64,000 nucleotides of DNA from assembly GCF_006345805.1 (NCBI RefSeq), contig NC_043000.1, positions 93,558,001 to 93,622,000 of the forward strand, given 5' to 3'. Position 1 is the stretch's first letter. Each line of letters opens with the position of its first letter. Source of the stretch: Octopus sinensis (Eukaryota). The notes beneath the pieces were generated by a model. That model did not search any database. It saw only the letters and a list, made by a program, of their open reading frames with translations, and was not told the origin of the DNA. Made by a program: the position numbers and the translations under genes. Positions 2,041-38,329 of the stretch are shown here, piece by piece.

Positions 2041-2078
<38 letters not shown>

Positions 2079-2184
2079 CACGTACATACACACACACACA
2101 CACAGCCTGAGAATATTCACTCAGAGTGAGGTTTATATAATAGACAATATTTACTTTATGTACATGGACCTATTTATGTCAGTA

Positions 2185-2500
2185 TATACACATATATGCA
2201 TATGTATATATATATATATGCATATGTATATATATATACACATATATATACATATATATATATACACACATATACATATATATATGTATATATATATATA
2301 CACGCACACACACATATATATATACATATATACATATATAAAAACTTACTTGGAGAAAAGAAAAGAAACATATATATATATATATATATACATATATATA
2401 CATATATATTCATATACATATATGTTAATAAAATAGAATATATGCATATATATAAACATATATGTACGTACCTACCTCTACATGTACATATACACGCATA
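2185..2500. repeat. (TA)n/(TACA)n compound microsatellite, representative of dozens of similar tracts
   Basis: Directly visible. Similar tracts at 2966-3250, 18280-18430, 38305-38572, 44890-45360, 48140-50190 and 55910-56230. Confidence 0.95.
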
Positions 2501-2524
2501 TACACCAAAAAGACGTCGAACACA

Positions 2525-2965
2525 TAGAGAGACGAAACACATAGACACAAACCAAGGAACAAGACAAGCAAAAAAAAGGAGAGATACAGGACAATAAGCA
2601 CAACGAAAAATCCCCTTCTTCAGTCGCTAAGATTTCATCTACTAAACGTTTCGAAGGATAAAAGCGAGACGTATACTTCGAAGAAAAATTCCTTCCCGCG
2701 AAAAGCAAATCAATTAAAATTCTGAGATCTTTTCGCAGAGGGGTAAAAAAAAAGCAAGACGGTAACGACAGTACAAACATATAAACAGTAAAAAATATAT
2801 ATATAAACAGTGGAAAAATAAATATATAACAGTGAGAGACAGGACAAGGAGAACAAGATAAGAAGGGCTGTTAACGCCAGACGAAAAAAGTATTGCAAAC
2901 GCTGGATTATCGTGGAAGACGAGAGAGGGAAAATTTGTCGACCAGAAGCCTTACAAGGCGGGCGA
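2525..2965 (-). mobile_element. Degenerate Penelope-like retroelement 3' fragment between TA tracts
   Basis: Minus-strand reading of about 2865-2910 gives, with frameshifts, IIQRL-NTF-SGVN. This resembles the LxTLxPxGLN C-terminus of Penelope GIY-YIG domains. Hammerhead-core-like words lie downstream (2610-2659). Confidence 0.45.
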
Positions 2966-3061
2966 TATATATATATATATTCATATACATATATACATAT
3001 ATATATATATATTCATATACATATATATACATATATATATATTATATATATATTCATATAC

Positions 3062-3104
<43 letters not shown>

Positions 3105-3109
3105 TATAC

Positions 3110-3143
<34 letters not shown>

Positions 3144-3209
3144 TCATATACATATATACATATACATATATATACATATATATATATATATATATTCATA
3201 TACATATAT

Positions 3210-3253
<44 letters not shown>

Positions 3254-3431
3254 AGAGAGATAGAGAGAGTCACTTAATTTTTGCCCCATCGACATCTTGA
3301 CTTTAATTAGCTTTACATAATAGACATTGAATAATTGTCTGAGAGTCTGGTAGGTTAATTATTCACCAGCAGATTTTTGTTTTCTTCTAACCTGCTCCGG
3401 CTTTCCAATATAACAATTCCGATTGTGTGTA

Positions 3432-3466
<35 letters not shown>

Positions 3467-3666
3467 GCGCGCGCGCTTGTGGGTTGTTGACTTGGCCTTT
3501 CTCATTTATTGGTCATCGATGCGTGTTTGTATTTGTGTCTGTTCGACTAAGTTCTTTCTCCCTCATTCCGTTAATGGTGGTTAGAGATAGTGACGGGAGA
3601 CAGGCGTTCGGATGGACGGCTTTGCTCTTTGCTATGATATACATATATATATATATATATATATAT

Positions 3667-15627: not shown

Positions 15628-16508
15628 CAGGGTGCGATGGGTAAATTGTCACCATTTTATATTTTTAATTTCATGCATGTGCATTCTTTGTTTTTGATTT
15701 TGTTGACTACACAGTATAGTAGGGTCAGTTGGGCACCATCTTTGAGAAGAACAGCACCATGACGCAATACATTCTACCAGAAATTTGGGAACAACATGCT
15801 GTACTGCTTGGCATTTGTACCAGAAGCTCCAACATGAACAGATGGTAAACACATAGAACAATTGTTGGCTTGCCCTGTCCCCAAAACATGTACCAAGAGT
15901 GATAAAAATCAAACATCCAATTAATATCATGGTTTGGAGTGATCAGTAGTGATTGTGACTTCATGCCTCCAGTCATCTTCCCACATGACCTCACACTCAA
16001 CACAGAGGCCTACATCAAGTGCCTAGAGGAGGTAGTGCTGTTCTGGGTCAAGACAGTGGTTGGTGGAAGACCGTATGTCCGGCAACAGGACTCTGCACCA
16101 TGCCAAACAAGCAAAAGAACCCAGTCATGGCTGTCAGACGATTCCTATGACCACATCTTCCTTAATATCAGGCCACCTAACTCCCCAGACAGTAATCCCT
16201 TTGATTATTATGTGTGGGGCAAAGTTGAGTGAGAGACCAACGAAACTCCTTGTAACACCAAAGGTGAATTGAAGGCAAGGATTATGGCAGCATCCACGAA
16301 CTTAAACAAGGAGATCGCCCAGAAGAGTTACAGGAGATTCTGAAGTTGTCTGGAGACCATGGTTGAGGCCAATGGCAATTTTATTGAATCAATTTACTCT
16401 TTAGAATTTCAAGATATATAATTTTGATAAATATATCTGTTAAAATGAGATGTCAGAGTTATATTCATTATTTTGTAATTTAGAAAACAACATATTCACT
16501 GCACCCTG
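15628..16508 (+). mobile_element. Internally deleted Tc1/mariner-superfamily transposon, DD37D (maT) family
   Basis: TA|CAGGGTGC...GCACCCTG|TA termini. The transposase remnant has QQD and SPDxNPxD(YYVW) motifs, with 37 residues between the second and third catalytic D. Confidence 0.9.
15900..16390 (+). pseudogene. Transposase catalytic/C-terminal remnant with in-frame stops
   Basis: ORF 15939-16232 (ISSDCDFMPPVIFP...YIKCLEEVV...QQDSAPC...PPNSPDSNPFDYYVWGKVE*) continues after the TGA as ETNETPCNTKGELKARIMAA...VEANGNFIE. Confidence 0.88.
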
Positions 16509-19060: not shown

Positions 19061-20245
19061 ATATATATATATATATATCCATGTAAAGGCTCATGGCCTG
19101 GTGGTCAAAATGTTGCATTCCACTCAGATTGTGGTTTCGATTTCTAGCCAGACGGTGGAATGTATTCTTAAGCAGAACACTTTATCCCACATTGCTCTGC
19201 AGTCACTTTGATGTCAGACACACAGCACACTCTGCATTTGTAGAAGCAATGTCTGTTTGATACAGGGTGTGATCGCAAGCATTTGATCACTACAAACAAA
19301 TAATCTGTGCAGGTTCATGATAATGATGATGATCATGATCATTTAATGTCTGCTTTCGATGCTGGCTTGGGTTTGATAATTTGACATGGAGTTGGCTCGC
19401 AGGAACTGTCCAGACTCCAGCTGTCCATTGAAGCATGGTTTCTATGGTTGGATGCCCTTCCTAATGCCAATCACTTAACAGTGTGCTAGGTGCTTTTACA
19501 TGGCACCAGCAAAAGTTGCCAAACCACATCTATCATCCACCACAAGAGAAGCCATCACTCATACATTTGTGTGTTTTTGTCAGAGAGTCAAAAGTCCTTC
19601 CCAAGCCATAGGCTCGTATGGCCAGTTTCCGGAATTCTGTGAAGTAAATATTACCCTTTCCCCACCTCCCCAGATGGGATGCTGTTCTGATCTGGACCAC
19701 TGTGAAATGAAGAGTGTTTTGCTCATGAACACAACACATTGCCCAGTCAAGGAATTGAAACCACAATCTTACAGTCATGAGTGCAACACTCTAACCACTG
19801 AACCATATGTCTCCGTGTATGTGTGTGCGTGTGTATATAAATACACACACACACACACACATGTACATATATGTATATGTATGTATAATGGTCCTTAGCT
19901 ATGTTATCTCCTCATGATTTTGTCTATGGCTTACTGTAATGGCCTCTGCTCATCAAAGACAGCTGAAGTCATGTCAACACGAGGAAGACATTTCCAGTTC
20001 ACTTATCTCTCCTCCACCTATTACCTTTGTTGTGTCGACCAACCCCTAGGGCCCCCTCTCTCTCTCTCCCTCTTCTCCGAACTAATTACTATGTCCAGTC
20101 TTCCTAACCCAGAGCATCACACTTTGAAATCCCCTCCTGGCTTATGTTCTTCCTGCAGGTGTTGCCTTGCGAATGATTCAAGAGAATCATTGATGATGGC
20201 ACTAAGACTCATGACTCACCAGGCTCAGAACTATAAAATCCAGGG

Positions 20246-20575
20246 GCATTTCCCCTTTCTTCCAAACCCAGCAGGTACAGCAAAAAGAAATAGAATGCAG
20301 AGACTATACACATTCGGCTCAATATTCCCAAGTGAGAACTTGTGGTTCTCATTAATAACCCAACACACATGTACACACACACACACTGTACATTGTACAT
20401 TTATGCAAAGGCCATGAGCACTTCCCCTTTCTTCCAGACCCAACAAGTACAGCAAAAAGAAAGCGAACAAAGGGACTGTATACATTTGGCTCAATATTCC
20501 GAACTGAGAACTTGTGGTTCATATCATAGCCCAACACACATGCAAACACACACACACATGCACTCACTGTACTGT
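20246..20575. repeat. Diverged ~170-bp tandem duplication
   Basis: TTCCCCTTTCTTCCA.ACCCA.CA.GTACAGCAAAAAGAAA...GGCTCAATATTCC..TGAGAACTTGTGGTTC occurs twice, each copy ending in (CA)n. Confidence 0.85.
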
Positions 20576-20749
20576 TATGACAACACACTTTCAGGTGATA
20601 TCTGATCAAATCTGTTGGCTTATATGGATTTCAGTTTTATATTACAGATGTATATATCATGTAAGGACAAAAAAGACATTTTTTTCTTTTATGATCTATC
20701 AATCTGTAAATTATCTGCCCTTAATTATCATAAATAGCAATGGTAATTG

Positions 20750-21170
20750 CTTCAGATTTTGGCCCTAGGCCAGTAATTTTCTGGAGAGGGGTTACTTGAT
20801 TACTTTGCCCCATCCTTTCACAAGACTTGATTGATACTTTATTTTATTGATTCTAAAAGGATGAAAGGCAGAGTCAACCTTTCTGGAATTTGAACTCAGA
20901 ATGTAAACAGCCCAAAGAAACGGCACTAAGCATTTTCTCAAACTTGCTGACAGTTCTGCCAGGCACAAAGCCAATAATTTTGAAGGGAGGTAGGTAGTCG
21001 ATGCCACTGACCCAGCACTTTAGCTGTTACTTTATTTCATCAATCCTGGTGAGGTGCGGGACAAAAGGCAAAGTTTATCTTGCTGAGATTTTGAACTCAG
21101 AAGATTAAGATCTGAAGAGATATTGCAAGGTAAGTTCTCCAATGCCCTAACAATTCTACCAATCTACTAC
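20750..21170 (-). mobile_element. Two tandem diverged SINE A copies
   Basis: AAAGGCA.AGT...TTTGAACTCAGAA motif occurs twice. Confidence 0.7.
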
Positions 21171-21237
21171 TCTGATAGTAATAATAACTAATAATAATAA
21201 TAATTATTATTATTATTATTATAATTATAATTATAAA

Positions 21238-21797
21238 TGCCCTGATGCAGTATCATATAGTGGCTCTCATGGCTTCTGAGCTTAACTAATTGGAAGTGTT
21301 ATCATGTACATTGTTTTGTCTTGGTATCAAAGATGGGCTACAGCAAATATTCTGCTCAATACCACAGATTTGCTTGTCAGTTGTTTGACCGTAACCAGTT
21401 GAGCATGTCCCTTAGTGGCTGACGATATGTGCATCTCTACTCATGAGCAGAAGCAGTAGGGGTGCATCATAGCCATGTGTTGAGAGGAATTCTTTGGGGT
21501 TTGAATAATTGACCTTTGGAAACATGGGTGTTTCGTTCAACATCCTTAAACAATCCTTATTCAGGGACTTTTGAGTGGGATGGGCTACTCAACCTGAAGA
21601 AAATTCTAACTGGGTCCCCACCTGCAAAGCCATGCACTGTTTATATTGATATGAGATCACCATGTCGCGCACATATGGTTGTACTGCATGTGCCTGGTAT
21701 ACCCTTATCAGACGGGTAGTCATGATGGGTATACTGGGCTTCATATGTTTGTACCCCATTGTCATTTTGATGGCATGCACTGCTCTCTCACTCAATA
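21238..21797 (+). mobile_element. ~550-bp interspersed repeat embedded in (TAA)n (Dong/R4-like target preference, inferred)
   Basis: A collinear second copy lies at 40576-41097. Both start at C.CTGATGCAGTA directly after TAA repeats and end CTCTC.CACTCAA followed by TAA repeats. Confidence 0.75.
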
Positions 21798-21876
21798 AAC
21801 AAAAATAAATAAATAATAATAATAATAATAATATCCACTACCCTGATGACAATAATAATAATAATCCACTACCCTG

Positions 21877-21908
<32 letters not shown>

Positions 21909-22941
21909 CCTTTGTACTGGAAGCACAAACGATTCACATATGTCTATATTTGTGTGTGTGTCTGTGTTTATCCCACCACCATTACTTGACAACCGATGCT
22001 GGTGTGTTTATGTCCATGTAACTTAGCAGTTTAGCAAAGGAGACAGATAAAATTAAGTATAGGCCTACAAAGAATAAGTCCTGGGATCGATTTCTTTGAC
22101 TAAGACCTTTTAAGGCAGTGCTCCAGGATGGCTACAGTCAAATGACTGAAACAAATAAAAGAATATGTATGTATGTATGTATGTTTATTATCTGTCGGAT
22201 TGCCAAGTGTGTATTCCGGTCACCGTTTATTTATGTGATCTGTGGCATGAAGATAGTTGATCCAGTTTATTTGACAGCACCCCAGTTATCCAAGATGTAG
22301 AAGGAGATGCCAAAAAATTGTGTGTTATCTGGTCTGTTGCTATATTCTATAAAAGGCTGCAAGTTCTGTGATATTGGTAATTTTGGTTGCAGTGTAAGAG
22401 CAAAACAAAATAATCTGGGGCTTGTTGAATTCCATTTAGTATCATATGTTCAATTTCTTACGTAAACAGGTGCATGTATATGTGTGTGTACATGCGTGTG
22501 CTTTCTTTGCAGCTGGTTCCTATTTTTAAATGAGCCATTGCTGTAGCCTATAACAAGAGTGAATGTTACCTATTTTTTTTTCCCATTCCAGTTTCACTGA
22601 CCCATAAAAAGAAATATAAACACACAGGTATGCACTCACATACATCCATATATCTGTGTGTGTATGTGTGTTTCTCCATTTCTTATCAAAAAAAAGTCTT
22701 GAATATCTCACTCAATTTCAGACTTAGTTATGTTTAATAAATGAGAGACAAATAACCTCAGGTCTATTTATCCGGCTATTTGTCCAGTTATCTTTCAGAG
22801 AGCCCTTGCTCCCTTCTTCATCCACTAGGTTACCTGAAATAATTTGTTTTATATTTTACTTGATTCAGTCATTAGGCTGTGGCCATGCTAGGGCACCGCC
22901 TTGAAGAAATTTAGTTTGTAAATATACATACATACATATAT

Positions 22942-22983
<42 letters not shown>

Positions 22984-23016
22984 ATGTGTGTGTATATATA
23001 TATATATATATATGTG

Positions 23017-23048
<32 letters not shown>

Positions 23049-23629
23049 TATTTACAAGGGGCTTCTTTCAGTTTCTGTCTACCAAATCCACCCACAAGAC
23101 TTTGGTTAGCCTGAGGCTATAGTGGAAGACACTTGCTTAAGTTGTCACACTGTGGGACTGAACCCAGAACCATGTGGTTGGGAAGCAGGCTTCTTACCAC
23201 ATAGCTGTGTCTATGTCTAGCTGTTATGCTTGTTCTCACCATTGTTATTCCTGTTTAGCTTTAGATTAATCCTGATCAAGTGGACTTATGATCAAAGGTG
23301 AATTTATTAGGGGTTTTTACGACTAAGTTATCTAATACAATTTTCTACATTTTAATATTGTCGGATAATTCCAGGGAACTTTCGCTGCTGTTTCTAGCAG
23401 TTTAAGTTATGCTGTAATCTGATTGGTTTGAATATGTTGAAGTATTACATATTGATTTTATGCCCATGTCAGCCCTGATTAAGTTGATTAATGATTTATG
23501 ACTACATTATCTGATGTAGTCACCCATGTATAAAAAATGACAAGCTGTGATTTGATGGAGATTTAGCTGCTATTTCAAGCAGGCCATATGAAGGTGTAAT
23601 TCTATTGGCATAAATATACCAATAAATTA

Positions 23630-24043
23630 CTCTTTTACTCTTTTATTTGTTTCAGTCATGTGACTGTGGCCATGCTGGAGCACCGCCTTTGGTCGAGCAA
23701 ATCGACCCCAGGACTTATTCTTTGTAAGCCTAGTACTTATTCTATCGATCTCTTTTGCTGAACCGCTAAGTTATGGGGACATCAACACACCAGCATCGGT
23801 TGTCAAGCAATGTTGGGGGGAACAAACACAGTCACACAAACATACACACAAACACACACACACACATATATATATATATCGCCACATATATACAACAGGC
23901 TTCTTTCAGTTTCCGTCTACCAAATCCACTCACAAGGCGAGGCTATAGTAGAAGACACTTGCCCAAGGTGCCATGCAGTGGGACTGAAACCGGAACCATG
24001 TAGTTGGTAAACAAGCTATTTACCACACAGCCACTCCTGCGCC
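23630..24043 (-). mobile_element. Full-length SINE B with 17-bp TSD
   Basis: Identical AATATACCAATAAATTA at 23613-23629 and 24113-24129. Confidence 0.9.
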
Positions 24044-24744
24044 TATATAAAAGAGCTGGATAAAAGTTTAGAAACAGAAAAAAGAAAAGCAACTTGTTTT
24101 ATCAACCCCTCCAATATACCAATAAATTATTTAACCCTTCTGATACCAGCTTACCAAAAACTACTTTGGATCTATGATGCTAGCTTATTGTTTAAACATG
24201 ATCCAAGTTAAAACCTTCAAGCAAAATTTCATGTTAAATTATTGCAAACACCAGCTTAACGAGAACAGCAGCTATCAAACATCATTTTCAGCATTATCAT
24301 CATACTAATAGTCATCCGAGTCATCATCATCATTGAAGTCTTTGTCATCATCATCATCATCATCATCATCATTCCTTTCATCAATTGCTTAGAATACAAT
24401 TGGCCTTTTATTTTAATGAAATAATTATTTTGTCAACATTAATTATATTCTAATAAAATTTCAAATTTATTTGCAAACTTATAAAATGAAAAAACAAAAT
24501 CCCATAAAAAAACGACAAGACAAATCTTTCAATAAAACTACAACAACAACACAAACACTAACAAACCAACACCTCAAACATCACTTCCTAAGTACCTGTT
24601 CCTCTTCATCTTATTCTCTTCATAGAAAATTAAAAATTAAAAAAAATTTTTTAAGTCAATGTAAGTCCTATATATTTAGTGCTTACCCTTTGTTTTGTAT
24701 TTGTTGTTGTTGTTGTTGCTCTACTTAGAAGTAAAACATATTTG

Positions 24745-25025
24745 CAAGGGGGAAGAGTTCCTGGAAATTAACACAAGAATGCAGTCATTGGTACTTAGAC
24801 ACATTCCTGTTAATAAAGAGGATTAGTTTCGGCGTTACGTGGGTGGTTGCTTAGCATGCCTGCACTTGATCAAAGTTTCCGCTATCTACCCCCACCCCCG
24901 CTACACACACACACTCATACACACACTTGTCCATGTATTTCAGTGGAAATGAATTTCTTTGAAAATTGAGTAAAATTCTACAGCTGTCTATCCTTTTGAC
25001 CTTTTGATAATCATTACGTAACTCG
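24745..25025. promoter_or_regulatory. Candidate enhancer (motif cluster in non-repetitive island)
   Basis: TTCCTGGAA (STAT, 24758-24766), ACATTCCT (TEAD/M-CAT, 24801-24808), GGATTA, CAGCTG (24981-24986) and TTACGTAA (25014-25021). Motif evidence only. Confidence 0.3.
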
Positions 25026-25063
25026 GTATATCTATCTATCTATCACTGTTTTTCACTCTCCCT

Positions 25064-25139
<76 letters not shown>

Positions 25140-25147
<8 letters not shown>

Positions 25148-25206
25148 CTGAAGGGATGCTATAAAGCGAAGTGCTTTATGGATGTGAAACCTTGGGTAAC
25201 CCTATA
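25140..25206 (+). ncRNA. Degenerate hammerhead-like motif between TA tracts
   Basis: CTGAAGG, hairpin CTATAAAGC/GCTTTATGG, GAAAC-CTTGG-GTA, then ACCCTATA pairing imperfectly with the upstream TATATGTT. Confidence 0.45.
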
Positions 25207-25989
25207 GACCAGCCATAACTATCTTTATCTAATTATATATATATATATTTGTATATATGTATATATGTTTGTATATGTTATTTATATACATGTATAAACA
25301 ACTTTGTGCTTTTGTGTGTGGTTGTGCGTACATGTATGTTTATTTGTGGAATGAAATGGTGAGCTGTTTTGGAAAATTTTTGATAGTTTTCAAAAAGTAT
25401 GAAGTGGATTCTAAGTATTTATAAGTATTTGTTAGTATTTATCAAGAAATTAGCTACTCTCTCTCCCTCTTACTTCCACTCTCACCTATTGTTCTTCTCT
25501 CTCTCTTTTTCTCTCTCTCCCCTCCCGTGTTTTTCTCTCCCTCTCCTGTTTTTATCTCTCCTCTCAGACAAACTACTCCCCACACAACTATTCTGGCTGT
25601 TCCCATTTGAAATTCAAATTCCACTTCTGATCACTAACCCTCTTCTGGTAGAATGCGAAACTTTTCAGACCTTGACTAACAGTGATTGGCCTCAGCTATC
25701 AGATACAGGAATTATTCAAATAAAGTCTAAGTTGCAATGACAGAATGAGCAGGTGCTGCACAGAGCTGGATAAAAGTTTAAAAACAGAAAAAAGAAAAGC
25801 AACTTGTTTTATCAGACCCTCCACCTTTATTGAAAGCCTAGATATAGATATAGAATTGGTAGAGTACCATAATACTGCTGGCTATCTGGTAATTCTAAGG
25901 GTGAATGAGCTCTATTTTGTACTCTAATGCATTTTTAATGGAATACACCTCAAATATATCTATATATATATACATATAGATATTTTATT

Positions 25990-26148
25990 AACTATAAATA
26001 AGGGTATCTGAGAGACACTACCATGCCAAAATAGCAGTCAAACCCTGATCCTAAAAACCACCTAAAATGTTTTTAGGTGGTTTTTAGAGTCAGGGTTTGA
26101 CTGCTATTTCGGCATGGTGGTGTCTCTCAGATACGCTTATTTATAATT
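25990..26148. repeat. ~75-bp-arm inverted repeat (long hairpin)
   Basis: TATAAATAAGGGTATCTGAGAGACAC...AACCACCTAAAA / TTTTAGGTGGTT...GTGTCTCTCAGATACGCTTATTTATA with a 3-nt loop. Confidence 0.9.
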
Positions 26149-28072
26149 GTGAAAAATTATTACCTTTGTATGGTATTTATTCCCATGCTGGCCACTTGAT
26201 AATATCAATATTTAAATATTGATATTATCCTTATTATAAAGATATTTTATTAATAAATTTTTCCCTTATGAGGTTTTTCATGCTAACTACTTGATAATTT
26301 CTTATAAAGATTTTATCCTATTTTAAAATTATATAGATAGATAGATAGATAGATATAGGTATGTATGTGTGTATAAATCATCCTTTCAGTTTGTGTCTTC
26401 GATAATGTATGAAATAAATGACTACGTACTTGAAACAAGCAAGGCACTTGCTTGTTTCAAGTGGTTGATAGAAACCCATTGTGTCGCATGTGTGTGTGTG
26501 TATACACACATGCATGTAACTTCCAATAAATGCATTGAGTGCCCTTCTTTCGTTTGTCCACTTACTCATATATATGTTTGTGTGTGTGTGTGTATATGAT
26601 ATGCTTTTCATATGTATACATTTGTGTGTCCTTGTCTTAACAGTGAATAATAATTGTATATAAGTGTTATTCTCATATGAGCAATGTCTCTGAAATCATG
26701 TCCATCCATGAGGATGTATTACTTTGCTTGGGAGCAGCTGCAGTTGGTATCATGAAGGGCATCTTGGTGTAGAAAATATATATATATATATATATATACA
26801 TACACGCACACACATGCACACACACACACATACATATATAGGTTGATTATCTTTTTTATTCTCTCAGGATTTTAGGATCAATTTTGGTTAGATTTTTTTA
26901 ATTGAAATGTGTTAAATTATATAATTATTTTGTTTTCATCTGTCATCATTCCAAAATCATTACGACCCACCACCATAACCACCACTACCACCACCACCAC
27001 CACCACCAACACAACAACAACAACAACAACACTACCACTGCTCCAACCAAAAACATTCTCGAAGTATCATTTTTGTCTCTAGCATAAAATAAGGTTCACT
27101 TTTTTAAATTTGCCCTATAGTCTGTTCCCTTTCTTTCCTTCCTTTATTCAATTTATATTTTTGAAAGCATTCAGACTTGATCTCAACAAAAACAAAAAAA
27201 TAAAAAAAAATAGCATAAACCAGAATTAAAAAAAAAAACAGAAAAAGAAATAACACTTGCCTGCCCCTACCCATATTATAATAAACAACATTACTATACA
27301 GACACATGGCTCAATGCTGCAGCCACTGTTGCTGTTGGTGCATTGCTTTACTGCATCACTTGCTCATTCTGCTATTGCTTATTGCATGGTCAGTGCACAG
27401 TATATGTTGTGGGTATTTCTATATTTTCTATGAATTGCACTTGGCATCACCGATGTATACAGCAATTTGCACTCATTGCTATAGCTACTTGCATTATTTT
27501 TCTCATTCTATCCCACTTCCTCACCTTCATCACTCCTATTGCTACCACCACCATATACATATGCAAACACAAGTATGCACACACACACACACACACACAC
27601 ATATACATGCATATGCACAAACACATACACATACACACTTGTCCTGCTTCTTGTTGAAAACAGCGCATTATTTTTTTCTTCTCTATCTTGCAGTAAAAGA
27701 GAATTTAACCAATAATGCATGTTTAAGCGAAAGAGTAAAGCAAATTTAGTCCTAATATACAGTACATATGTGTGTGTGTGTGTATTTATAATTATATATT
27801 GATAGAGAGACAGCGTGAAAAAACTATTAAGATGGGATAGGCTCACAATCAAGATTATTTATTCGATGCTTAAAGAGGTGAATAGTGTTCTTCAGCATAT
27901 GTTTAGAAGAAAAAGAGAGAAGGAAAATACACATGCACTCACGCACGTGCACACACACACACACACAATATATATATATATATATATTATAATATATATA
28001 TATATATATATATACTTATATGTAAATACTAATATATATATCTGGAAATGTAATATGTGACAATTATTCGGT

Positions 28073-28144
28073 AGCCAAGATAAAACTCCGAGTTTCGGAT
28101 GCCGAAGTGGAAATCCACGCCACCATCTCTTCAGTTATCTGGCC
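28073..28144 (-). ncRNA. Type I hammerhead ribozyme (conserved core nucleotides intact)
   Basis: Minus strand: GGCCAGATAA CTGAAGA GATG..GTGGatttCCAC..CATC-C GAAA CTCGGAG TT TTATCT-T-GGCT. Stem I is ~10 bp, stem III is short and near-palindromic, and the cleavage triplet is GUU. Confidence 0.75.
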
Positions 28145-28198
28145 ATCGGAAAAACACTATGAAAAATGACCGTCATATATAAAATATTTTTGTAATGC

Positions 28199-28273
28199 TT
28201 TAACTGAGGACGGTTTACATAACGGATGCATTCTGTGTTATATATCATACAAATCTGAAACATACGTATTAAA
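28199..28273 (+). ncRNA. Minimal type I hammerhead ribozyme (imperfect stem II)
   Basis: TTTAA CTGAGGA C GGTTT...AAATCT GAAAC atac GTA TTAAA. Stem I is 5 bp, stem III is 2 bp, and the cleavage triplet is GUA. Confidence 0.6.
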
Positions 28274-28857
28274 TGACTTTAAAATCTCAGTTTTGCTTGA
28301 CTTTATTATTACTACTGATATGACTCAATGTCAATACAATCTAGACAGTCTTGATGCCACTTGCACAGATACTCAGATATTAACATCCATTATCAAGCGG
28401 GAGTGGGGGAACAAACGTATATAAATGGCAGGCTTCTTTCAGTTTCCAACTACCAAATCCACTCATAAGGCTGTGGTCGGTCCAAGGCTATATCAGAAGA
28501 CACTTGTCCAAAACACTTGCTACTTACCTCATAGCCACTCCTGCGCCTAACAGGTTTTTCAGTGAGTTTGGTCGCTTGTTTGAGTATTTTAGCTCTTATT
28601 TCTAGCAAGCTGGTACTTCATGTATCCTCTATTTTAATTATTTATTAATTAGAAAATTTTATTGGTTAGCCAATTAATGGCATTATTGCTTGCTGGCCAC
28701 TAATATTATTGTTGTTATTATTATTGTTTATTATTTATATATTTACTGCTAATGATAATAATATATTATTGAATATTCATTCAAATATTTACTCATATAT
28801 ATCTATGTATGTCTATACGTATGTATAGATAGGTAGGTAGATAGATAGATAGATCTG

Positions 28858-28917
<60 letters not shown>

Positions 28918-29191
28918 TACATTATTCAAACTCGCACTCATGTAGTGTATGTGTATGTCACCTTATGTACTGTACACAAAGTGCTTGTGGACTTCGTTAC
29001 TGTTTATGTCCATGCTTGTGTGTATACTCTGTATGTATATGTAGCTGTATTCATGTGATCAGTCTAAGAATCTTGAAGGGAGAATCCCTGGAATGTTTTT
29101 ACAAATTTTCACTGTACTTCTGATTGACTGTATTTGGAGAATGTGAATCACTCTGCTTTGTTCTTTTCTGGAAAACATTAGAATTTTTAGG

Positions 29192-29234
<43 letters not shown>

Positions 29235-30087
29235 ACCTACACACACACAACACACACACACACACACACACACACATATGTAGATAGATAGATAAAAGTA
29301 TTTTTGCAGTATTGTTTTTATATCTTTATTTTTGCGTTTTTGTTTTAAATTTTATTTTACGGGAGAAAGTTAAGTGATGAGTAAAAATTCCATCAATTTT
29401 CCAAGTCCATTTTCATCTTTGCGGCGTGTCTGGCACTGGTGGAGGATGGAAAAAATAGTGTATTGTTGCACTTTGACCTTCATTGATCTCTCACCTTTTA
29501 AATTGTTTCTGGATTTCTTCATTAGGCTTAAATAAATAGATATACTAAATATTCATTCACAAACTCAAGCATAAGTACATATACATATATATAAATATGT
29601 ACTTATATATATATATATATATAAACATGTACTTTGAGAGAGAAGTACATATGCACATTGTGTTACAGACCGTTAAAGATATTGTTTCAAATTATAAAAC
29701 TTAAATTGCCACAAAAACTTGCAGACACTTATTGAAAAATATGTACCATGAAATGTATTTGTTTCATTTGTACTGTTATTAATGTTACATACGTATATGA
29801 GTGTGTGTGTGTGTAAGAAGCTTGCTTCCTAACCACATAGTTTCAGGTTGGTGTGTTTATGTTCTCGTAACTTAGCAGTTCAGCAAAAAGTATCAATGAA
29901 GTACTGTTAATTCATTTCACTAAAAATTTGGTGACATAGTTTGGCCACAGTCTAGCAACTGAAACATTTAAACGATAATATATATATATTTATATATATA
30001 TATATATATCCTGAGCAGCCAATAACACTATACTTGTTCCACGTCCTTGTGTTGTTGTGTTTTCTCTTTGTGTTTTCATGTTTGAAT

Positions 30088-30125
<38 letters not shown>

Positions 30126-30573
30126 TCATCATCATTTTAGTGTCTATTTGTCCATGCTTGCAAGGGTTAGGCAGGACTATATTGGGGCAGAGCTGTCTAT
30201 GGCCAGATGCCCTTCCTGACATCGGCTCTCATCAGTTTTCAAACAAGGGAATAAATCCTTATTGTATTAGGACAAAGAGCGCAGGCATGGTTATGTGGTG
30301 AACTGGAAACAAGTGACACCATCAGAAACAAAAACCTTTTGTTTACAATCAGCAAACACATGCAATGATGAGAAAAAATACGAGCTTACTCATGCATATG
30401 CAAGGTTCCTTTATTTCTTGTTTATTTATTTCACTTGAAACGTAGTGATTGATTTGCAACTTTAGGACAGGACACCAGTTGACAGCATCTACAAGCTGAA
30501 AAGAATCCTAGCCACATGCTTCAGGTAGAATTTCATAACTACACTGCCATATACACACATATACATGTATGTA

Positions 30574-30791
30574 TGAGGGGGCACTGAAAGGTTTAGGCTT
30601 TGGGTTAAAAAAAAAAAGCAGGTGGATCAGTAAATTACGATTTTATTGAACATATTCCCCTCTCAGTTTACACACTTATTGCAGTGGTCCCTCAGGTTTT
30701 TGTAAGCCTAGTAAAAGAACGTGGAAGGCTGGGCCTCCAGCCAGGCGTTTTCTGATACCCTTAAAGCCAGAAACTTTTCAGCACCTCCTTA
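30574..30791. mobile_element. Mariner-type MITE (TA TSD)
   Basis: TA|TGAGGGGGCACTGAAAGGTTTAGGCTTT...AAAGCCAGAAACTTTTCAGCACCTCCTTA|TA with imperfect TIRs. Confidence 0.7.
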
Positions 30792-31957
30792 TATATGTAT
30801 GTGTCATCATCATTTTACGTCTGCTTTCCATGCTGGCATAAGTTGGATGATTTTACAGGAGCTGACCAGACCAGCTGAAGGGCTGTTCAGGCTCCGTGTC
30901 TGTTTTAGCATAGTCTCTACGGCTGGATGCCCTTCCTATATATATATATATATATATATAGTTATGTGTCTATGTGTATATATATATTAGCTATAAGCAA
31001 GGCTTTAAGCTTAAAGAGTTTAACTTCATAACCATGTGGCTTCAGTGCATGATTGATGGATGCGATGCTTTCTGAATGAAATTTGGTAGATGGAAACTGC
31101 CCATTGCATATGTGTGTTTGTGGGAAAAATCATACAGAAATGTCATCAATGTTAAAATGTTAATGGATTTTGAATCCCAGGAATTCAAAGGTCTAAAGCT
31201 TATCTATCTGCACAGTTTCTAGTCTATCAAATCAAATCAAATGAAACCAATGAGATATCTAGAAGGTTAATTGGTTGCAGGTAATTTTTTCACAAGCATA
31301 ACAAATCTCTGAGTTGTGTTGAATTAGATCCTTTCGAGAAAGAACACAAATCTACAGGAGAAAAATAAGAATTAAAACAAAAACAAAAAATGCTGTAATT
31401 GATACAGGAATTAGTTATCAAAATACTTTCTTCATTCAACCATTTCATGGAATTTTATTCTAATCAGAAATAAGACCACCACTGCCACGACAACAACAAT
31501 AACAACAACAACTACTACTACTACTACTACTGCTGCTGCTTATACTATCATCATAAGAACTACTACAATTATCATCATCATCATCAAACAAATAAAATTG
31601 TTCCAATGCCACCATCAACAGCTGAGCAGTCACCAGTGACCACTGAGGGTTATAAAATACTTTTCATTGCTGTTCTGTGCCATCCTTGTTTAGAAAGATA
31701 TATATATACATATATATGTATGTGTGTGTGTGTATTTATATATATATGGGCATCCTGCTGTTGAAACTAAGTTAAATCAGACTGAAGTCTGGTGCAGCTC
31801 TCCAGCTTACTAGTTCCAGCCTGACCGACTAACTCATGCCAGCATGGAAAACAGACATTAAATGATGATTATGATGATATATATACACTTGTATATGCGT
31901 GTGCATATATATATATACACACATATGTGTATGTCTATCTATCTATCTATCTATATT

Positions 31958-31998
<41 letters not shown>

Positions 31999-32307
31999 CT
32001 AAATCATCACCATGATCACTATTTGACATCCATTTTCCATGCTGCATACGTTAGATGGTCCAACAGGATCTAATGGGCTAGAGAGCTGTGTTAGGTTCCA
32101 ACATAGAAACCAGCATTGATATGGTTTCTACAGCTGGATGCTTTTACTAATGCTGACCATGGATCATCCTCCTTCTCATCATCATCATCATCATCATATT
32201 TTAATGTACCTTCTTCTATACTGGCATGGTTTGAATGGTTCAACACGAACATATGTGCCAGAGGGCTTCACTGAAATCTAATCTCTACTTAGGCATGAGG
32301 TTTCTAC

Positions 32308-32501
32308 CAGGGGCGTATATTCAAGGTGTTCTAGGTATGTACTGCACACCCATCAAAAATGGCAAATTCATTATAAATATTAACCTTACTCATTAATTAA
32401 ATCACAAATCTTAATGGAAAACTTTTGTTATACCCCTGCTTGAAATTTGGTGGCATTGGGTGTGGCAGCACACTGAATACAACAACCACCATGCACCACT
32501 G
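32308..32501. mobile_element. hAT-type MITE with perfect 8-bp TSD, nested in a family D repeat
   Basis: GTTTCTAC|CAGGGGCGTA...TGCACCACTG|GTTTCTAC. Confidence 0.85.
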
Positions 32502-33066
32502 GTTTCTACAGCTGTAAGCCCTTTCTAATATTAATCGCTTCATAGCATGTACTGGATGCTTTTTTCATAGCACCAACACCAATGAGGTCGCCAAGAACCT
32601 GCAAGACAAAACCTTGCAACTGAGTATCTGGAAGTAAGAAAGAGGGACATGAGCAGGTGTTGTCTTGCTGATGGCTTGCTCATCGCATATGTTAAATGAT
32701 GATGATGATGATGATGTGAGTTTGCTATGATACGTCAACAGAGATCATAAAGCTTAAACGTTTGTAGCGAGCTGGAGTGCTTTAGGTTGGCTGATGTGTT
32801 GTTGATATGCAAGGTGGGGTGGGCGTAGTAAGCGCAAGAGCATATTCTTGATATGTGAAGCGACCGGCCATGTCTGTGTGTTGTTGTTGTTGTTTTTGTT
32901 GTTAAAAGAGAACTTTCTTGTGTCACCTCACCATTAGGAAGATATTTTTTTTGTCTTTAATTCTAGAGATTCAACAGTTGGTACAGACAGTTCCTTTCTT
33001 TGTTGTTGACAAAGGAAGGTGAACATTAAATCATAAAAGAAAAATTATGATAACAATAGTGATAAC

Positions 33067-33113
<47 letters not shown>

Positions 33114-33792
33114 TGATGATGATGATAATACTATAAAATAAAAATGACAATAAAATAAACAGCTTAAATCTTAGATATTTTCTTTTTCTGATTGTTTTCC
33201 ATATCAGAATACAATTTGTTATTAGTTCTTTTTTTCTTTTGTTTTCATCCATTTATTATTTATTTATTTATTTATAAAAGTTGTAAATTTGTCTTAAGTA
33301 CAATAAAGAAGGGAAAAAAAGAGACAAAAGGAGAAAGAGAGAGAAAGATGAAAATACAGAGATTGATGAAGAAAGAGAGGAGGAGAGAAAAAATCAATAT
33401 GCTGGAAATGAAAAAGGGAAAAACTAAATGTATAATTTAGAAAAACAATTGATAAGAAAAAACAGATTTTAAAAATAAAGTCTGTGTGTGTGTTTGTCAG
33501 TCTATGTGTATATACATACATACATACATATATATATATATACAATATATATGTATGAAGAATTTTAACTTAAAATTAAGAAATTCATTTCAAGGAAGGG
33601 GAGGTGAGAAAAGAGGGTGAGGGGAAGGAAGGCAAGAAGGAACAAAATGAAAAACAAATATAAAAAAAACCCAAAAAACAAATGAAATAAAATATAAAAT
33701 CCTAGCTGACAGACAGAAAGGAAAAACCAAGATGTTGACATAAGAGGAGAAGTCTGTTTACAAGTTGATCTATACAGACAGAGAAGCTTTGC

Positions 33793-33823
<31 letters not shown>

Positions 33824-34010
33824 CGTGTGCACGCATGTGTGTGTGTGTGTGCATGTATATTTATAATGTCTGTATTGTTTTGAGCCCTTTGATTTAATGC
33901 ATTTATCAGTCAATATATCCTGTCTACATTTGAGTGAAATATATGCATACACATACACATATATACATATATATATATACATATACATATATATATCATA
34001 TATGTATATG

Positions 34011-34052
<42 letters not shown>

Positions 34053-34296
34053 TATATATGTATGTATGTATATCCAAATATCCTCACACATACACATGCA
34101 TGTGTGCCATGCACACACACCTTCACGCACAAACGTGTATGTATACTCAGATAGATGAAAAGTAAAACTACGTTTTCAGTGTTCACACATACGCATGCAT
34201 TCACATATACACACCACATACTTCCAATATACTGTTCACTGCAAAGGCTTGCTGATATGTGCATCTATGATCTCTCTCTCGCTCTCTCTCTCTCAT

Positions 34297-34327
<31 letters not shown>

Positions 34328-35162
34328 TAGATATGCATGTCCTTATTTCTTTTTGTTTGCATTTTTCTCAATGAATGATCATAGGAATGGTAATGATGAT
34401 AGTGACAAAATGTCAATTGCTTAATCATTCTTTAAAAGATACAAGGAAAACAACAATATAAATATTACAACACAATAAATACACTGTTTTTTTTTTGTTT
34501 TTTTTTTACAATACAGAACATAGCATGAAGACTCAGCTACGAGGATAGAAGGATTGAGTCATTCATTTATAGTTAACCTCCTCCTCATCATCATCTCCAT
34601 TATCATCATCATCTGCATTTTAGCAGCTCCTTCTCCATGCTTGTAAGAATCAGACATGGATATGTTCAGTGTCAGGGCTTTCTATTGCTAAGTGTCTGTC
34701 CTTTCTCTAATCCTCACCTATTCCTAAGCAAGATAAAGTAATAATAATAGCAACAAAAAATACAAACCTAGTAAAATTCCTTGTGTCTTAGAGCGGTGTT
34801 ATGGTCCTGGCACTGTTGTGGTTCTGGCACTGTCATGGTGATATTTAGTATAATTTCATACATCCAGATTTTATCTGTCATCTCTCTCTGTTTTTGTCTA
34901 CTCCTCCACAAGGAATAGTTAAGAGAGGTTTGGTTACTGTTTCTAGTAAATTGTCTGGTTCCGTAGTGGTCCTCATGTTTGCCAATATCCAATATTAGGA
35001 TTGAATGCACACCAGAATTATCTCATACCTCTCTTTGTCTTTTTCTTTCTCTTCTTAACAATGAGAGGCATCTCTATTGTGTGGATCTCAATTTGACAAA
35101 GAATAGACCTCCATCTAATAATTTGAGGAAAGTCTTTAGTTCCCCTAACCATCCTCATCATT

Positions 35163-35740
35163 AATCCATTCATTCATCCATCTTCTCCACTACTATTCCT
35201 GTGAGGATCATGGTGGGTAGAGTCCTCTGGCACCCCTGTGATAGGGTCCTTTCAAGAACAATCATCATTAAACTTATTGGTGGATTATCAAGCATGACCA
35301 ACTAAGTCTATGGATATCATCCAACCGTCTTGGTCTACTATTAGGTCTCCTCTCAATTGTCTTGGCTTGAAGAAGCCTTAAAGCCATAAAGCTACCTGTT
35401 TACTGTGATGTTCTAATCATATCTGTAGTACTGGAGCTGTGACTCCTCAACAAGGAGAAGTAGCAGCTCACTCTAGGGAGACTCCCTCATCTCCAAGATA
35501 TGCTTGCTGCCAAATAATGTTCCTCCAGAGATTCTTCAGAGTAACCCTATTTTGGTCACTTGTATTCAAAATACAGTCGTTACACTATATTCATGACCAT
35601 AAGTGAAGATAGGCACAAAACCAAGCAGAAGATAGCAAGTTTGGTTTTTTTACCAATCCCTCCTCTTATGAGGGCCAAATGCTGGAGCTAGTGCCTAGCA
35701 TCCAATTCTAACACCTCTTCATTAATGGTAAGACAAAATA
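35163..35740 (-). mobile_element. Degenerate RTE-clade LINE (Expander/Rex3-like) 3' fragment
   Basis: Minus-strand reading with stops and frameshifts: KTKLAIF..VPIFTYGHEY..IQVTKIGLL*RISG..ELLLLLVEESQL..RRPNSRPR..LSWSCL. Ends in a GAAGATGGATGAATGAATGG tail. Confidence 0.8.
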
Positions 35741-37216
35741 AGAGTTTGCATCATTCATACAGATGCTTCTTTCTACCATTCTCCTCATTATCCGCATCAC
35801 TATCATTAACATTACTATAAATTTGCCTACCCCTCCTCCTTCTCCTCCTAATTATCATCATCATGATCACCATCCTTCTCTTCCTCATCTTTATACCCTC
35901 CACTTCATCATTGCCATCATCATCATCATCATTGTTGTTCTCTTCTACTTCTTCCTCCTACTCATCATCATCATCATCATGAATATCCTCTTCTCCATCC
36001 TTCTCTTCCACCTCCTCCTCCCACTCATCATCATCATCATCATCAATCATCATCATTATCAAGATCCACTTCATCATCATCATCATCATTATCATCCTCC
36101 TTATCATCATCATTACCATCTTCTGCATCATAATATTCCTTTTTCCAAATCATTTGTTTTTCATTTCATGAAAGCTACAAAACAAAAAAAAAGAAGAAAA
36201 ATGTTTCTTTAGTTTCGTACCTTATATATGAAAAAAAATAAATAAATAAACAACAACAGACAAGCTACATGTGTTCAGCAAGCAAACAAACAAAACACAC
36301 TATGCAAAGAATAAAAAAAAAAAAAATTCTCCCCCAAATTAACTTATAAATCAATTATATCTAACTGTTTACAATCAAATTAACGATTGAACATAATTGG
36401 TATTGCACTCACTCAATATCTTTCTGCTGATTGCTTTGAGCAGTCAAGCTACTGGACCTCCAAACGATATTAGCCAGTTCTTCGCAATTTTGTTATTGTA
36501 GTTTTTCTTGAAAAATTGGCAGTAATTCAAAAGATAGGTGGTTGATTTTTCTGTCTAGCTAGCTGCCTTGCTCATTTTATTCTTCCCTTTCAGTGTTTGA
36601 AGATATATATATATATATATATATATATCAGTACACACACAAACACATTCATACATACATTCATATATATATATATATATGCATAGGTATGTGTGTGTGT
36701 GTATATGTATATATATATATATACACATACATATATATATATATATATATGCACACACATACATATATATGTATCTATGTATATACAATGTTTGTATAAC
36801 CATTTGTTTTTTCATTCATTTTCATTTTTTTCCCAATTATGTGTGGTTACATAAATATATTAAGGCATGTATTTTCATAGAGCTGTAAGACCCTTTGTAT
36901 TACTAACCCTTATAAATTTTTACAAGCTGGAGGTTAAGGGATCTAATATTTCACACACCTTCAAAGACACAAAGCTAACAAACTATTTATTGACTGAGGA
37001 AAATGACCACAATGTCACTGCTTGTACCTAGCAATTTTTTGAGAAGTGCAAGAGTAAATACTCACACACACATGTACACACATGCACATATACATACACA
37101 TAGAGGCTTCTTTCAGCTTCTGTCTACCAGTTCTATTCATGAGGTTTCAGTTGGCCCAGGTCTATAGCAAAGAAACTTGTATATATATATATATATGTAT
37201 GCATATATATATATAC

Positions 37217-37247
<31 letters not shown>

Positions 37248-37290
37248 ATATACATATATACATATATATATATTATATATATATACATAT

Positions 37291-37349
<59 letters not shown>

Positions 37350-37565
37350 ATGCGGATGTCTTTAAAGTAGGACTGATCTCTTCCTGTCAGGTGTCCCGAA
37401 TGAACCAACTTCACGGCAGGAAGTGCAGATGAGGGCAGCTGCATTGAACTCTCTCATGCACCAAATGGCAGTTGCTAAAAAGCATTCGTGAAGTAAAATC
37501 ATATAGCATCACCAAATGGCGGTGCCCCAGCATGGCCACAGCTCGTGAGCTGAAACTAGATAAGA
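37350..37565 (+). mobile_element. Probable LINE 3' end sharing its terminus with SINE B
   Basis: Ends GGCGGTGCCCCAGCATGGCCACAGCTCGTGAGCTGAAACTAG but has non-SINE upstream sequence. Weak E(W)NQL-like motif near 37400. Confidence 0.5.
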
Positions 37566-37619
37566 TTTTTAAAAAAAAATATACATATATGTATATATAC
37601 AGAAACATATATTTATACA

Positions 37620-37663
<44 letters not shown>

Positions 37664-37835
37664 TGAAGTAAACACAAGTGGCATTTAAAATTTACAACAG
37701 CTGTTTCGACAGTGTTTTACTTATTTAATGCAGCCATAAAATGATTACATCATAATAAATAATCCACCATCATCAGATAAAATTTTAAGCATGTAAGATT
37801 TTAAACAGTGACCCGAACATAACCGACTATGTCTT

Positions 37836-37866
<31 letters not shown>

Positions 37867-38329
37867 TGTGTGTGCATGTTTACATATAAAAATATATCTA
37901 TATATTAATGTTTGTTTTTATGCTGAGTTACAATAAAAAACAATTTTACTTTAAACTGAAAGATTACCCAATGCTTTTTAAAGAGTACATATTTATTGTC
38001 ATTTTTGCAAGAAGAGTGGTGACAGTGACTTTGTTTGTATATTTGGGTTTATTCCTATATTTTTGCCTTCCCCCAAAGACCCCGAAGATGTCCTTCTTCA
38101 CATCTGGGTCAGAATGCGCTATTGATGTACAAGTGTTTAAGGTAATATAAAACATGAGGCCCTAATATCTAAGTGTGTGTGTATGTATTTATATATATAT
38201 ATATAATATATATATATATATATCCATATCCATTGTTGGAAATTCTTTGATTTCATTTTGCTGTTTCAGACAACTGCTGTATTTGTTTCATACAAACAAT
38301 TGGAATATATATATATGCACACACATATG

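What the first reader, a model, noticed from the sequence alone, without database searches (positions are those of the whole stretch)
28042..28275. Two different hammerhead ribozymes of opposite polarity in one ~230-bp element
Seen: a minus-strand type I hammerhead (28144-28073) with all core nucleotides, ~10-bp stem I and predicted cleavage between 28084 and 28083. Also seen: a plus-strand minimal hammerhead (28199-28273) with predicted cleavage after 28268. They face outward across a 54-nt spacer, next to a TA tract. Their stems are unrelated, so this is not a simple inverted duplication. Established: ribozymes in both polarities characterise viroid-like rolling-circle RNAs, whereas retrozymes and Penelope pLTRs usually carry them on one strand. 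Inference: this is either a novel ambisense-ribozyme retroelement or integrated viroid-like RNA family, or two Penelope-type ends fused back to back.
Basis: partly seen in the sequence, partly recalled or inferred. Interest (0 to 1): 0.85.

Follow-up and report, generated by a model that had tools for sequence, protein, structure and literature searches.

The report
Two unrelated retroelement ends, back-to-back
The two self-cutting-RNA (hammerhead) motifs are real, but they belong to two separate repeat families of very different abundance, likely leftover ends of Penelope-like jumping genes that landed next to each other at a TA repeat, so this is an ordinary genomic neighbourhood and not a viroid-like element.

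Summary
Both hammerhead motifs are present at the stated coordinates and exceed chance (3 motifs in the window, 0.02 expected). They are not one element. Contigs of four public runs laid on the locus show the minus-strand half (A, about 28032-28174) at summed depth about 20,000-38,000 times the unique flank in the three DNA-like runs. The plus-strand half (B, 28184-about 28294) reaches about 30-70 times. Other A copies continue into different sequence and other B copies lack A. In another organism's run, the likely orthologous contig holds B and its flank but does not extend into A. The '54-nt spacer' is A's 5' part, a 7-nt ATATATA remnant and B's 5' part. A shows Penelope-like traits: (TA)n-adjacent 3' ends, variable tails and inverted joints. 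B is decayed here; variants in other copies restore its stem II. There is no tandem array, rod-like fold or RT ORF, and neither strand carries two ribozymes to cut out a unit. Opposite-strand minimal-hammerhead pairs 100-700 bp apart were already reported (PMC4209133). Verdict: two independent, likely Penelope-type remnants.

The parts
27968..28041 (.). (TA)n microsatellite tract, the likely insertion target; its right-hand ~25 nt may be a decayed 3' tail of family A (inferred)
   Evidence: TRF array, period 2. Loose ends of other A copies before 28032 are TA runs; those before 28039/28051 carry an extension that shares the 9-mer at 28020-28028 with the window (table 7, compared by eye).
28032..28174 (-). 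Copy of very abundant repeat family A, likely a 5'-truncated Penelope-type pseudo-LTR or non-autonomous derivative
   Evidence: Summed contig depth 1.1-2.1 million over 28057-28140 in X1 against 43.6 at 28351-28378. Other copies diverge from the window at 28174-28177 (tables 2, 3, 7).
28073..28144 (-). Type I hammerhead motif A: intact core, 10-bp stem I, extended stem II, 3-bp palindromic stem III, predicted cut 28084/28083 (GUU)
   Evidence: variants at both 28114 and 28111 would turn A-U into G-C in the stem II hairpin (table 3).
28175..28181 (.). ATATATA remnant at the junction of the two families
   Evidence: Sequence; lies between the end of A similarity (28174-28177) and the start of B similarity (28184).
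28184..28294 (+). Copy of low-copy repeat family B, likely a decayed 5'-truncated Penelope-type pseudo-LTR fragment; a few copies match on to about 28350
   Evidence: Summed depth 739-2376 over 28183-28294 in X1; records 8 and 16 match 28184-28285/28284 only (tables 2, 8).
28199..28273 (+). Minimal type I hammerhead motif B: intact core, 5-bp stem I, decayed long stem II, 2-bp stem III, predicted cut after 28268 (GUA)
   Evidence: common variants in other copies repair 3 of the 5 mismatches in the 14 stem II positions examined (table 3).

Best explanation
The locus is two unrelated hammerhead-bearing repeats of very different abundance lying 5' end to 5' end, likely truncated ends (pseudo-LTRs) of Penelope-like retrotransposons or their non-autonomous derivatives that likely arrived one after the other. 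Shown: two motifs, two families, independent occurrence elsewhere, a 7-nt TA remnant at the junction. Inferred: B was copied in first by target-primed reverse transcription that stopped just upstream of its hammerhead, and has since decayed. A, from a family with probably tens of thousands of copies, was later inserted in the opposite orientation into the TA tract at B's 5' edge, also 5'-truncated. In the parent elements each hammerhead would cut the element's own RNA, probably as a dimer through the palindromic stem III. At this locus each strand has only one ribozyme, so no unit-length or circular RNA would be released; it is likely a passive fossil.
For: (1) Mean summed depth A/B = 971 (X1), 292 (X10), 1305 (X7), 180 (X8). 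Relative to the unique flank, A is about 36,000, 20,000 and 38,000 and B about 37, 67 and 29 in X1, X10, X7 (table 2, computed). (2) At 28174, 4188 of 4408 depth units in X1 carry the other letter, and loose ends show A copies continuing into a different sequence; at most about 220 units (about 5 single-copy equivalents) can share this junction. In X10 depth at 28174 is 0 although B depth is 1300-3600 (tables 2, 3, 7). (3) Long contigs hold one half without the other: record 25 (A, 137 unmatched letters on the B side), record 8 (B, at least 127 unmatched letters on the A side); records 16, 20 and 30 add 294-425 letters if minus-strand records are numbered in their own direction, which is my reading of the table (table 8). 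(4) Record 15 (X10, organism E, depth 40.7, the only cover at 28365-28378) spans 28175-28385 with 12 differences and has at least 19 unmatched letters left of 28175: B and flank without A. (5) 7 of 13 joints are opposite-strand (6 within A, 1 within B), none joins A to B and none goes back (table 5); inverted 5'-truncated copies, optional 30-40 bp tails and microsatellite bias are described for PLEs (PMC8557442). (6) Dual minimal hammerheads 100-700 bp apart on opposite strands, and mostly dispersed single motifs, were reported in Schistosoma (PMC4209133). (7) A third unrelated hammerhead lies at 37776, 31 nt upstream of a TA tract; A is 42 nt from one.
Against: No RT or GIY-YIG domain among 262 filtered reading frames of the window, and no full-length element was obtained, so the link to a PLE protein is unproven. 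Summed contig depth is not a copy number (tool's warning). The empty-site evidence is one contig whose unmatched letters I could not see; deletion of A in that lineage is not excluded. Table 8 showed 32 pieces with 12,311 hidden and table 7 hid 479 rows, so a few further A-B junctions could be unseen. B's 3' side is 593 nt from the next (TA)5 run, unlike A and C. A is not a textbook minimal hammerhead: stem I is 10 bp, and its extra nucleotide lies 3' of stem II rather than 5' as in PMC4209133. A rough genome-wide expectation is 1-60 such pairs, under assumed copy numbers and genome size.
Confidence: 0.8

Rival explanations
1. A and B were inserted in one event: a Penelope-like RT/endonuclease cut both strands and primed two different family RNAs, one on each end, giving a back-to-back chimera.
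For: The geometry (5' ends joined, 3' ends outward) is that of the inverted 5'-truncated PLE structure (PMC8557442). A purified PLE protein cleaves and extends both strands and is predicted to be a dimer (PMC11167929). The halves are separated by only about 7-9 nt.
Against: The likely orthologous contig in organism E holds B without A (record 15; depth 0 at 28174). The listed inverted joints are all within one family. B looks more decayed than A against its own structure.
Confidence: 0.1
2. Family A is a non-LTR retrozyme (tandem 150-400 nt units giving circular RNA) and this copy is a truncated monomer; the pairing with B is still accidental.
For: Very high abundance, a 10-bp bulged stem I and a 3-bp stem III resemble canonical type I motifs. 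Retrozymes occur in a mussel (PMC7229834; PMC7761336) and are proposed to derive from PLE pseudo-LTRs (10.64898/2026.07.22.740005).
Against: No head-to-tail joint among 13 joints and no tandem array here. The 3' ends of other copies run into TA tracts or short tails. A unit longer than the 143 bp seen here could hide tandem joints, so this is not excluded.
Confidence: 0.15
3. The 230 bp are one ambisense-ribozyme element or an integrated viroid-like RNA that replicates by a symmetric rolling circle.
For: One hammerhead on each strand within a viroid-sized stretch. Ribozymes in both polarities mark viroids and some HDV-like circles (PMC8781251; PMC7761336).
Against: The halves differ by two to three orders of magnitude in abundance and occur separately. 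Circular MFE z-scores are -0.48 and -0.36 with 59-67% of bases paired, not rod-like. No tandem copies. No match to A or B patterns in viral contigs. The locus is shared, with flank, by related organisms as chromosomal DNA.
Confidence: 0.02

Closest known systems
Minimal type I hammerheads in pseudo-LTRs of Penelope-like elements (Cervera and de la Pena 2014, PMC4209133)
   Same: Type I topology, long stem II, tiny palindromic stem III, dispersed single motifs in several unrelated families per genome, and occasional pairs close together on opposite strands. B and the third motif C fit the pattern of short stem III and an unpaired base after A9.
   Different: No ORF linked here. In the paper the opposite-strand pairs were not said to be of different families in the text I read. 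A has a 10-bp stem I and an unpaired base before G12; B has a C-U mismatch at the base of stem II.
Inverted 5'-truncated PLE insertions (Craig et al. 2021, PMC8557442)
   Same: Back-to-back geometry, optional 30-40 bp tail, insertion bias for microsatellites; such inverted joints are seen within families A and B.
   Different: There the inverted copy is the same element, forming an inverted repeat; here the two arms are unrelated sequences.
Animal non-LTR retrozymes (PMC7229834; 10.64898/2026.07.22.740005)
   Same: Non-coding, type I hammerhead, high copy number, likely PLE-derived.
   Different: Defined by head-to-tail tandem units with one polarity of ribozyme and circular RNA; no tandem seen here and expression not shown.
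Viroids (Avsunviroidae) and viroid-like or HDV-like circles with ribozymes in both polarities
   Same: One hammerhead per strand within about 230 nt.
   Different: These are single replicating RNA units with compact self-pairing, mostly with type III motifs. Here there are two independent genomic repeat families with type I motifs, no rod-like fold and no multimer.

Membership tests
Hammerhead ribozyme, type I | CUGANGA, GAAA and UH core with three helices, helix I open | tested here: met
   Both motifs; B's helices are weak in this copy but supported by variants in other copies.
Hammerhead ribozyme, type I | Match to a curated Rfam hammerhead model | tested here: not met
   0 matches at gathering score; no hammerhead among 6 matches at E<=10.
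Hammerhead ribozyme, type I | Self-cleavage | not testable with these tools
   Needs an in vitro assay; contigs cannot show RNA ends.
Penelope-like element pseudo-LTR | Linked ORF with PLE RT and GIY-YIG endonuclease | tested here: inconclusive
   None among 262 frames in the window, as expected for truncated copies. No host genome held, so full-length copies elsewhere could not be sought.
Penelope-like element pseudo-LTR | Type I hammerhead near the 3' end with small palindromic helix III | tested here: met
   A: cut site 42 nt from the TA tract, stem III palindromic. B: cut site about 25 nt from the end of main family similarity; its loop is one base off a palindrome.
Penelope-like element pseudo-LTR | Inverted 5'-truncated copies joined to the element | tested here: met
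   7 of 13 joints are opposite-strand within a family, one contig each (table 5).
Penelope-like element pseudo-LTR | Optional 30-40 bp tail and microsatellite or AT-rich target | tested here: inconclusive
   A: loose ends show TA runs and alternative 3' extensions, but consensus agreement is only 0.5-0.7 (table 7). B: no TA run at its 3' side.
Non-LTR retrozyme | Head-to-tail tandem units each with a hammerhead | tested here: not met
   No array at this locus and no go-back joint; arrays of a longer unit elsewhere are not excluded.
Non-LTR retrozyme | Abundant circular RNA | not testable with these tools
   No listed run is on record as RNA; contigs only.
Viroid-like ambisense replicon | Both ribozymes belong to one unit that is copied together | tested here: not met
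   Depth ratio 180-1305 and separate occurrence.
Viroid-like ambisense replicon | Compact rod-like or highly paired fold of the unit | tested here: not met
   Circular MFE z -0.48 (plus) and -0.36 (minus) against 60 shuffles each.
Viroid-like ambisense replicon | Circular RNAs of both polarities | not testable with these tools
   Needs stranded RNase R RNA-seq.

The most novel reading that the evidence does not exclude
The back-to-back pair is the trace of a single insertion in which a dimeric Penelope-like reverse transcriptase primed two different family RNAs on the two cut strands, a natural hetero-template version of the two-strand extension seen in vitro. Such pairs would be enriched genome-wide, and family A would be a hitherto undescribed, extremely abundant non-autonomous Penelope parasite with an atypical hammerhead.
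Probability: 0.1. Interest if true: 0.55.

Novelty: new member of a known kind. Interest (0 to 1): 0.15.

Why it matters
As an ambisense element it would have linked genomic retrozymes to viroid-like replicons; the data do not support that. What remains is modest. The genome carries at least three unrelated hammerhead-bearing repeat families, one apparently very abundant. If the host is an octopus (my recalled guess), I found none described in print in two searches or in the main texts checked; supplements were not read. Family A could be a handy natural test of whether hammerhead catalysis matters for Penelope-type spread, because a core-breaking variant (U4 to C) makes up 14-28% of depth in three runs and 0% in the fourth.

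Tried and rejected
Whole-genome search: no genome is held for this window. Self-BLAST found no second copy of A or B in the window (the middle of that output was cut, but the A and B rows were shown). Rfam: nothing relevant. Pattern scans: A patterns gave 0 hits in viral, metagenome and prokaryote genome contigs; a B pattern gave 0 in viral contigs and 2 in metagenomes. Those two, L001 and L002, are near-identical contigs where an 18-20 nt match lies inside a long reading frame with no stem II or stem I complement, so they are chance hits. Pfam: 262 reading frames of at least 55 aa after dropping low-complexity ones gave 5 weak hits, all below curated cut-offs, none RT or GIY-YIG. Expression: no RNA holder listed. 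X8 is only guessed to be RNA; its record 32 runs from A through B into unique flank, which could be DNA or pre-mRNA, so it is no evidence either way. The sharp fall in A depth at 28154 was considered as a true 5' end and rejected: loose ends continue with sequence like 28155-28174, so it is partly alignment breakdown at an A-run. The AUG at the start of A's stem II recalls the PAc ORF start, but the frame closes after 20 codons (read by eye), so it is not diagnostic. In the pair table I used 21 of the 40 variant rows shown (26 more were hidden). I left out loop, flank and junction rows and the minor 28246 C-to-G row, which does not restore a pair. Earlier-finding look-ups by sequence, place and words found nothing on this locus. 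PMC5785218 was not held; I saw only its title in a reference list.

Full report
Context. The window is AT-rich (GC 0.20-0.42 per 2 kb), with 145 tandem-repeat rows, mostly microsatellites, and many dispersed short repeats. It looks like animal non-coding DNA. From the look of its SINEs I take it to be an octopus; this is recalled and comes from no call. No whole genome is held.

Observation. A (minus): CUGAAGA 28134-28128, GAAA 28096-28093, cut 28084/28083 after GUU, 10-bp stem I, 4-bp stem II with a capping hairpin and an unpaired C before G12, 3-bp stem III. B (plus): CUGAGGA 28204-28210, GAAA 28257-28260, cut after 28268 (GUA), 5-bp stem I, 2-bp stem III. My descriptor found 3 motifs in the window against 0.02 expected from 100 random sequences; the third, C, is at 37776 on the minus strand. 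A folds better than shuffles (z -2.25), B does not (z +1.21). A, B and C share no sequence beyond the core. Rfam does not detect them.

Are the halves one element? The stretch 28042-28420 is held by 20 of 24 listed runs, under five organism labels, with half or more of its words in 7. I laid four runs (X1, X7, X10, X8; all contigs) on 28015-28430 at 80% likeness. Summed depth over A averages 1.56 million (X1), 0.80 million (X10) and 0.11 million (X7). Over B it averages 1609, 2740 and 86, and at the unique flank it is 43.6, 40.7 and 3.0. The tool warns that this is no copy number, but a 290- to 1300-fold gap cannot come from one element.

The junction tells the same story. At 28174, 4188 of 4408 depth units in X1 differ from the window, and loose ends at 28154-28177 show A copies continuing into another sequence; in X10 nothing covers 28174. 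The only listed contigs that bridge A and B are records 7 (X1) and 32 (X8), both running on into the unique flank, that is, this locus itself. Record 25 has A followed by 137 unmatched letters; record 8 has B with at least 127 unmatched letters on the A side. Records 16, 20 and 30 add longer examples if minus-strand records are numbered in their own direction, as record 32 suggests. None of 13 joints links A to B. Caveat: 12,311 pieces, 479 loose-end rows and 26 variant rows were not shown. The 54-nt gap resolves into A's 5' part (to 28174), ATATATA (28175-28181) and B's 5' part (from 28184).

Order of events. In organism E, record 15 covers 28175-28385 at single-copy depth with 12 differences and one gap, and is the only cover at 28365-28378, so it is likely the ortholog. 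At least 19 letters left of 28175 do not fit A, although E has plenty of A-family copies elsewhere. The simplest reading is that B is older and A was inserted later into the TA tract beside it. This rests on one contig, and loss of A in E is not excluded.

Are they real ribozyme families? In B, common variants in other copies repair 3 of 5 mismatches in the 14 stem II positions examined (28223, 28246, 28249), change a G-U to G-C (28254), and change both sides of one pair (28219, 28248; the table does not show that both changes lie on one copy). So the family has a stem II of about 12 bp and this copy has decayed. In A, variants keep stem I in the bulged register and turn one hairpin A-U into G-C; two internal positions stay mismatched.

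What kind of families? Seven of 13 joints are opposite-strand joints within a family. Other A copies end in TA runs or in short alternative extensions. The cut sites of A and C lie 42 and 31 nt from a TA run, which holds for 14% of random positions; B's lies 593 nt away. Inverted 5'-truncated copies, optional 30-40 bp tails, microsatellite bias and hammerheads in pseudo-LTRs are described for Penelope-like elements (PMC8557442, passages). Cervera and de la Pena (PMC4209133, parts 1-2 of 4 read) report thousands of dispersed minimal hammerheads per genome in many unrelated families, long stem II, palindromic stem III, low and dimer-dependent cleavage, and dual motifs about 100-700 bp apart on opposite strands. 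Penelope elements are abundant in octopus, with 30 recently active Penelope families listed for O. vulgaris; that main text has no mention of ribozymes (PMC13282606, passages; its supplement was listed but not read; PMC8967140, passages). No RT or GIY-YIG was found in 262 filtered reading frames of the window, so PLE membership is inferred from non-coding traits only.

Mechanism. Inferred: each half is the 3' end of a PLE RNA, or of a non-autonomous derivative, copied in by target-primed reverse transcription at AT-rich DNA and truncated at the 5' side. A purified PLE protein prefers AT-rich targets, extends both strands, and does not need hammerhead cleavage for insertion in vitro (PMC11167929, passages). 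At this locus a plus transcript would be cut at most once and a minus transcript at most once, so no unit RNA or circle would result. The unit is not rod-like when folded as a circle (z -0.48 and -0.36), unlike viroid-like replicons with ribozymes in both polarities (PMC8781251 and PMC7761336, passages). Adjacency is unlikely for one random 64-kb window (P = 0.003). A rough genome-wide expectation is 1-60 such pairs even without shared targeting, assuming 20,000-38,000 A copies, 1,000-50,000 other motifs and 2.5 Gb.

Rivals. A single two-template insertion (0.10) fits the geometry but not the apparent empty site. A as a truncated retrozyme monomer (0.15) is compatible with independence of the halves; retrozymes are defined by tandem units and circles (PMC7229834, passages) and are proposed to derive from PLE pseudo-LTRs (10.64898/2026.07.22.740005, part 1 of 5 and passages). 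An ambisense replicon (0.02) fails the two features I could test.

Novelty and verdict. The arrangement is already described in kind. Searches for octopus with hammerhead ribozyme listed no paper describing such families in octopus, and searches for twin priming with Penelope or for endogenous ambisense viroid-like elements gave nothing on this case (listings only). The library lacks most subscription papers, and I read no supplements or repeat libraries, which may already hold these families as Penelope or unknown repeats. Verdict: new members of a known kind; interest 0.15.

Noticed in passing
window 37788-37685, minus strand: A third, unrelated type I hammerhead motif (CUGAUGA at 37776, GAAA at 37707, palindromic stem III, GUU cut after 37696, about 11-bp AU-rich stem I), 31 nt upstream of a TA tract. 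It fits the minimal PLE type, with an unpaired U after A9.
   Followed up: partly
window 28133 (family A variants, table 3): A core-breaking variant (U4 to C) makes up 20%, 14% and 28% of depth in X1, X7 and X8 but 0% in X10, suggesting a subfamily that spread with a probably inactive hammerhead.
   Followed up: no
window 28078, 28089, 28105-28114 (table 3): Family A has different dominant variants in organism E (X10) than in organism A (X1), and a second stem II hairpin form appears in loose ends behind 28101 in all four runs, pointing to lineage-specific subfamilies.
   Followed up: no
window 28097: Family A has an unpaired base between stem II and G12, the opposite side from the extra base described for minimal PLE hammerheads; no indel row appears there table 4, so it seems a family trait.
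   Followed up: partly
window 28431-28511 (and 28379-28420): Fragment of the SINE-like repeat that recurs many times in the window at 77-86% identity; a low-copy repeat signal precedes it.
   Followed up: no
window 15906-16232, plus strand: A 108-aa frame that by recall resembles a Tc1/mariner transposase fragment; no Pfam hit at E<=0.01.
   Followed up: partly
window 54920-55428 and 57578-58136: Tandem arrays of 211-bp and 280-bp units that match the window's dispersed SINE-like repeats.
   Followed up: no
L001 539-603 and L002 2825-2889: Two near-identical metagenome contigs match the B pattern by chance inside a long reading frame; not hammerheads.
   Followed up: yes
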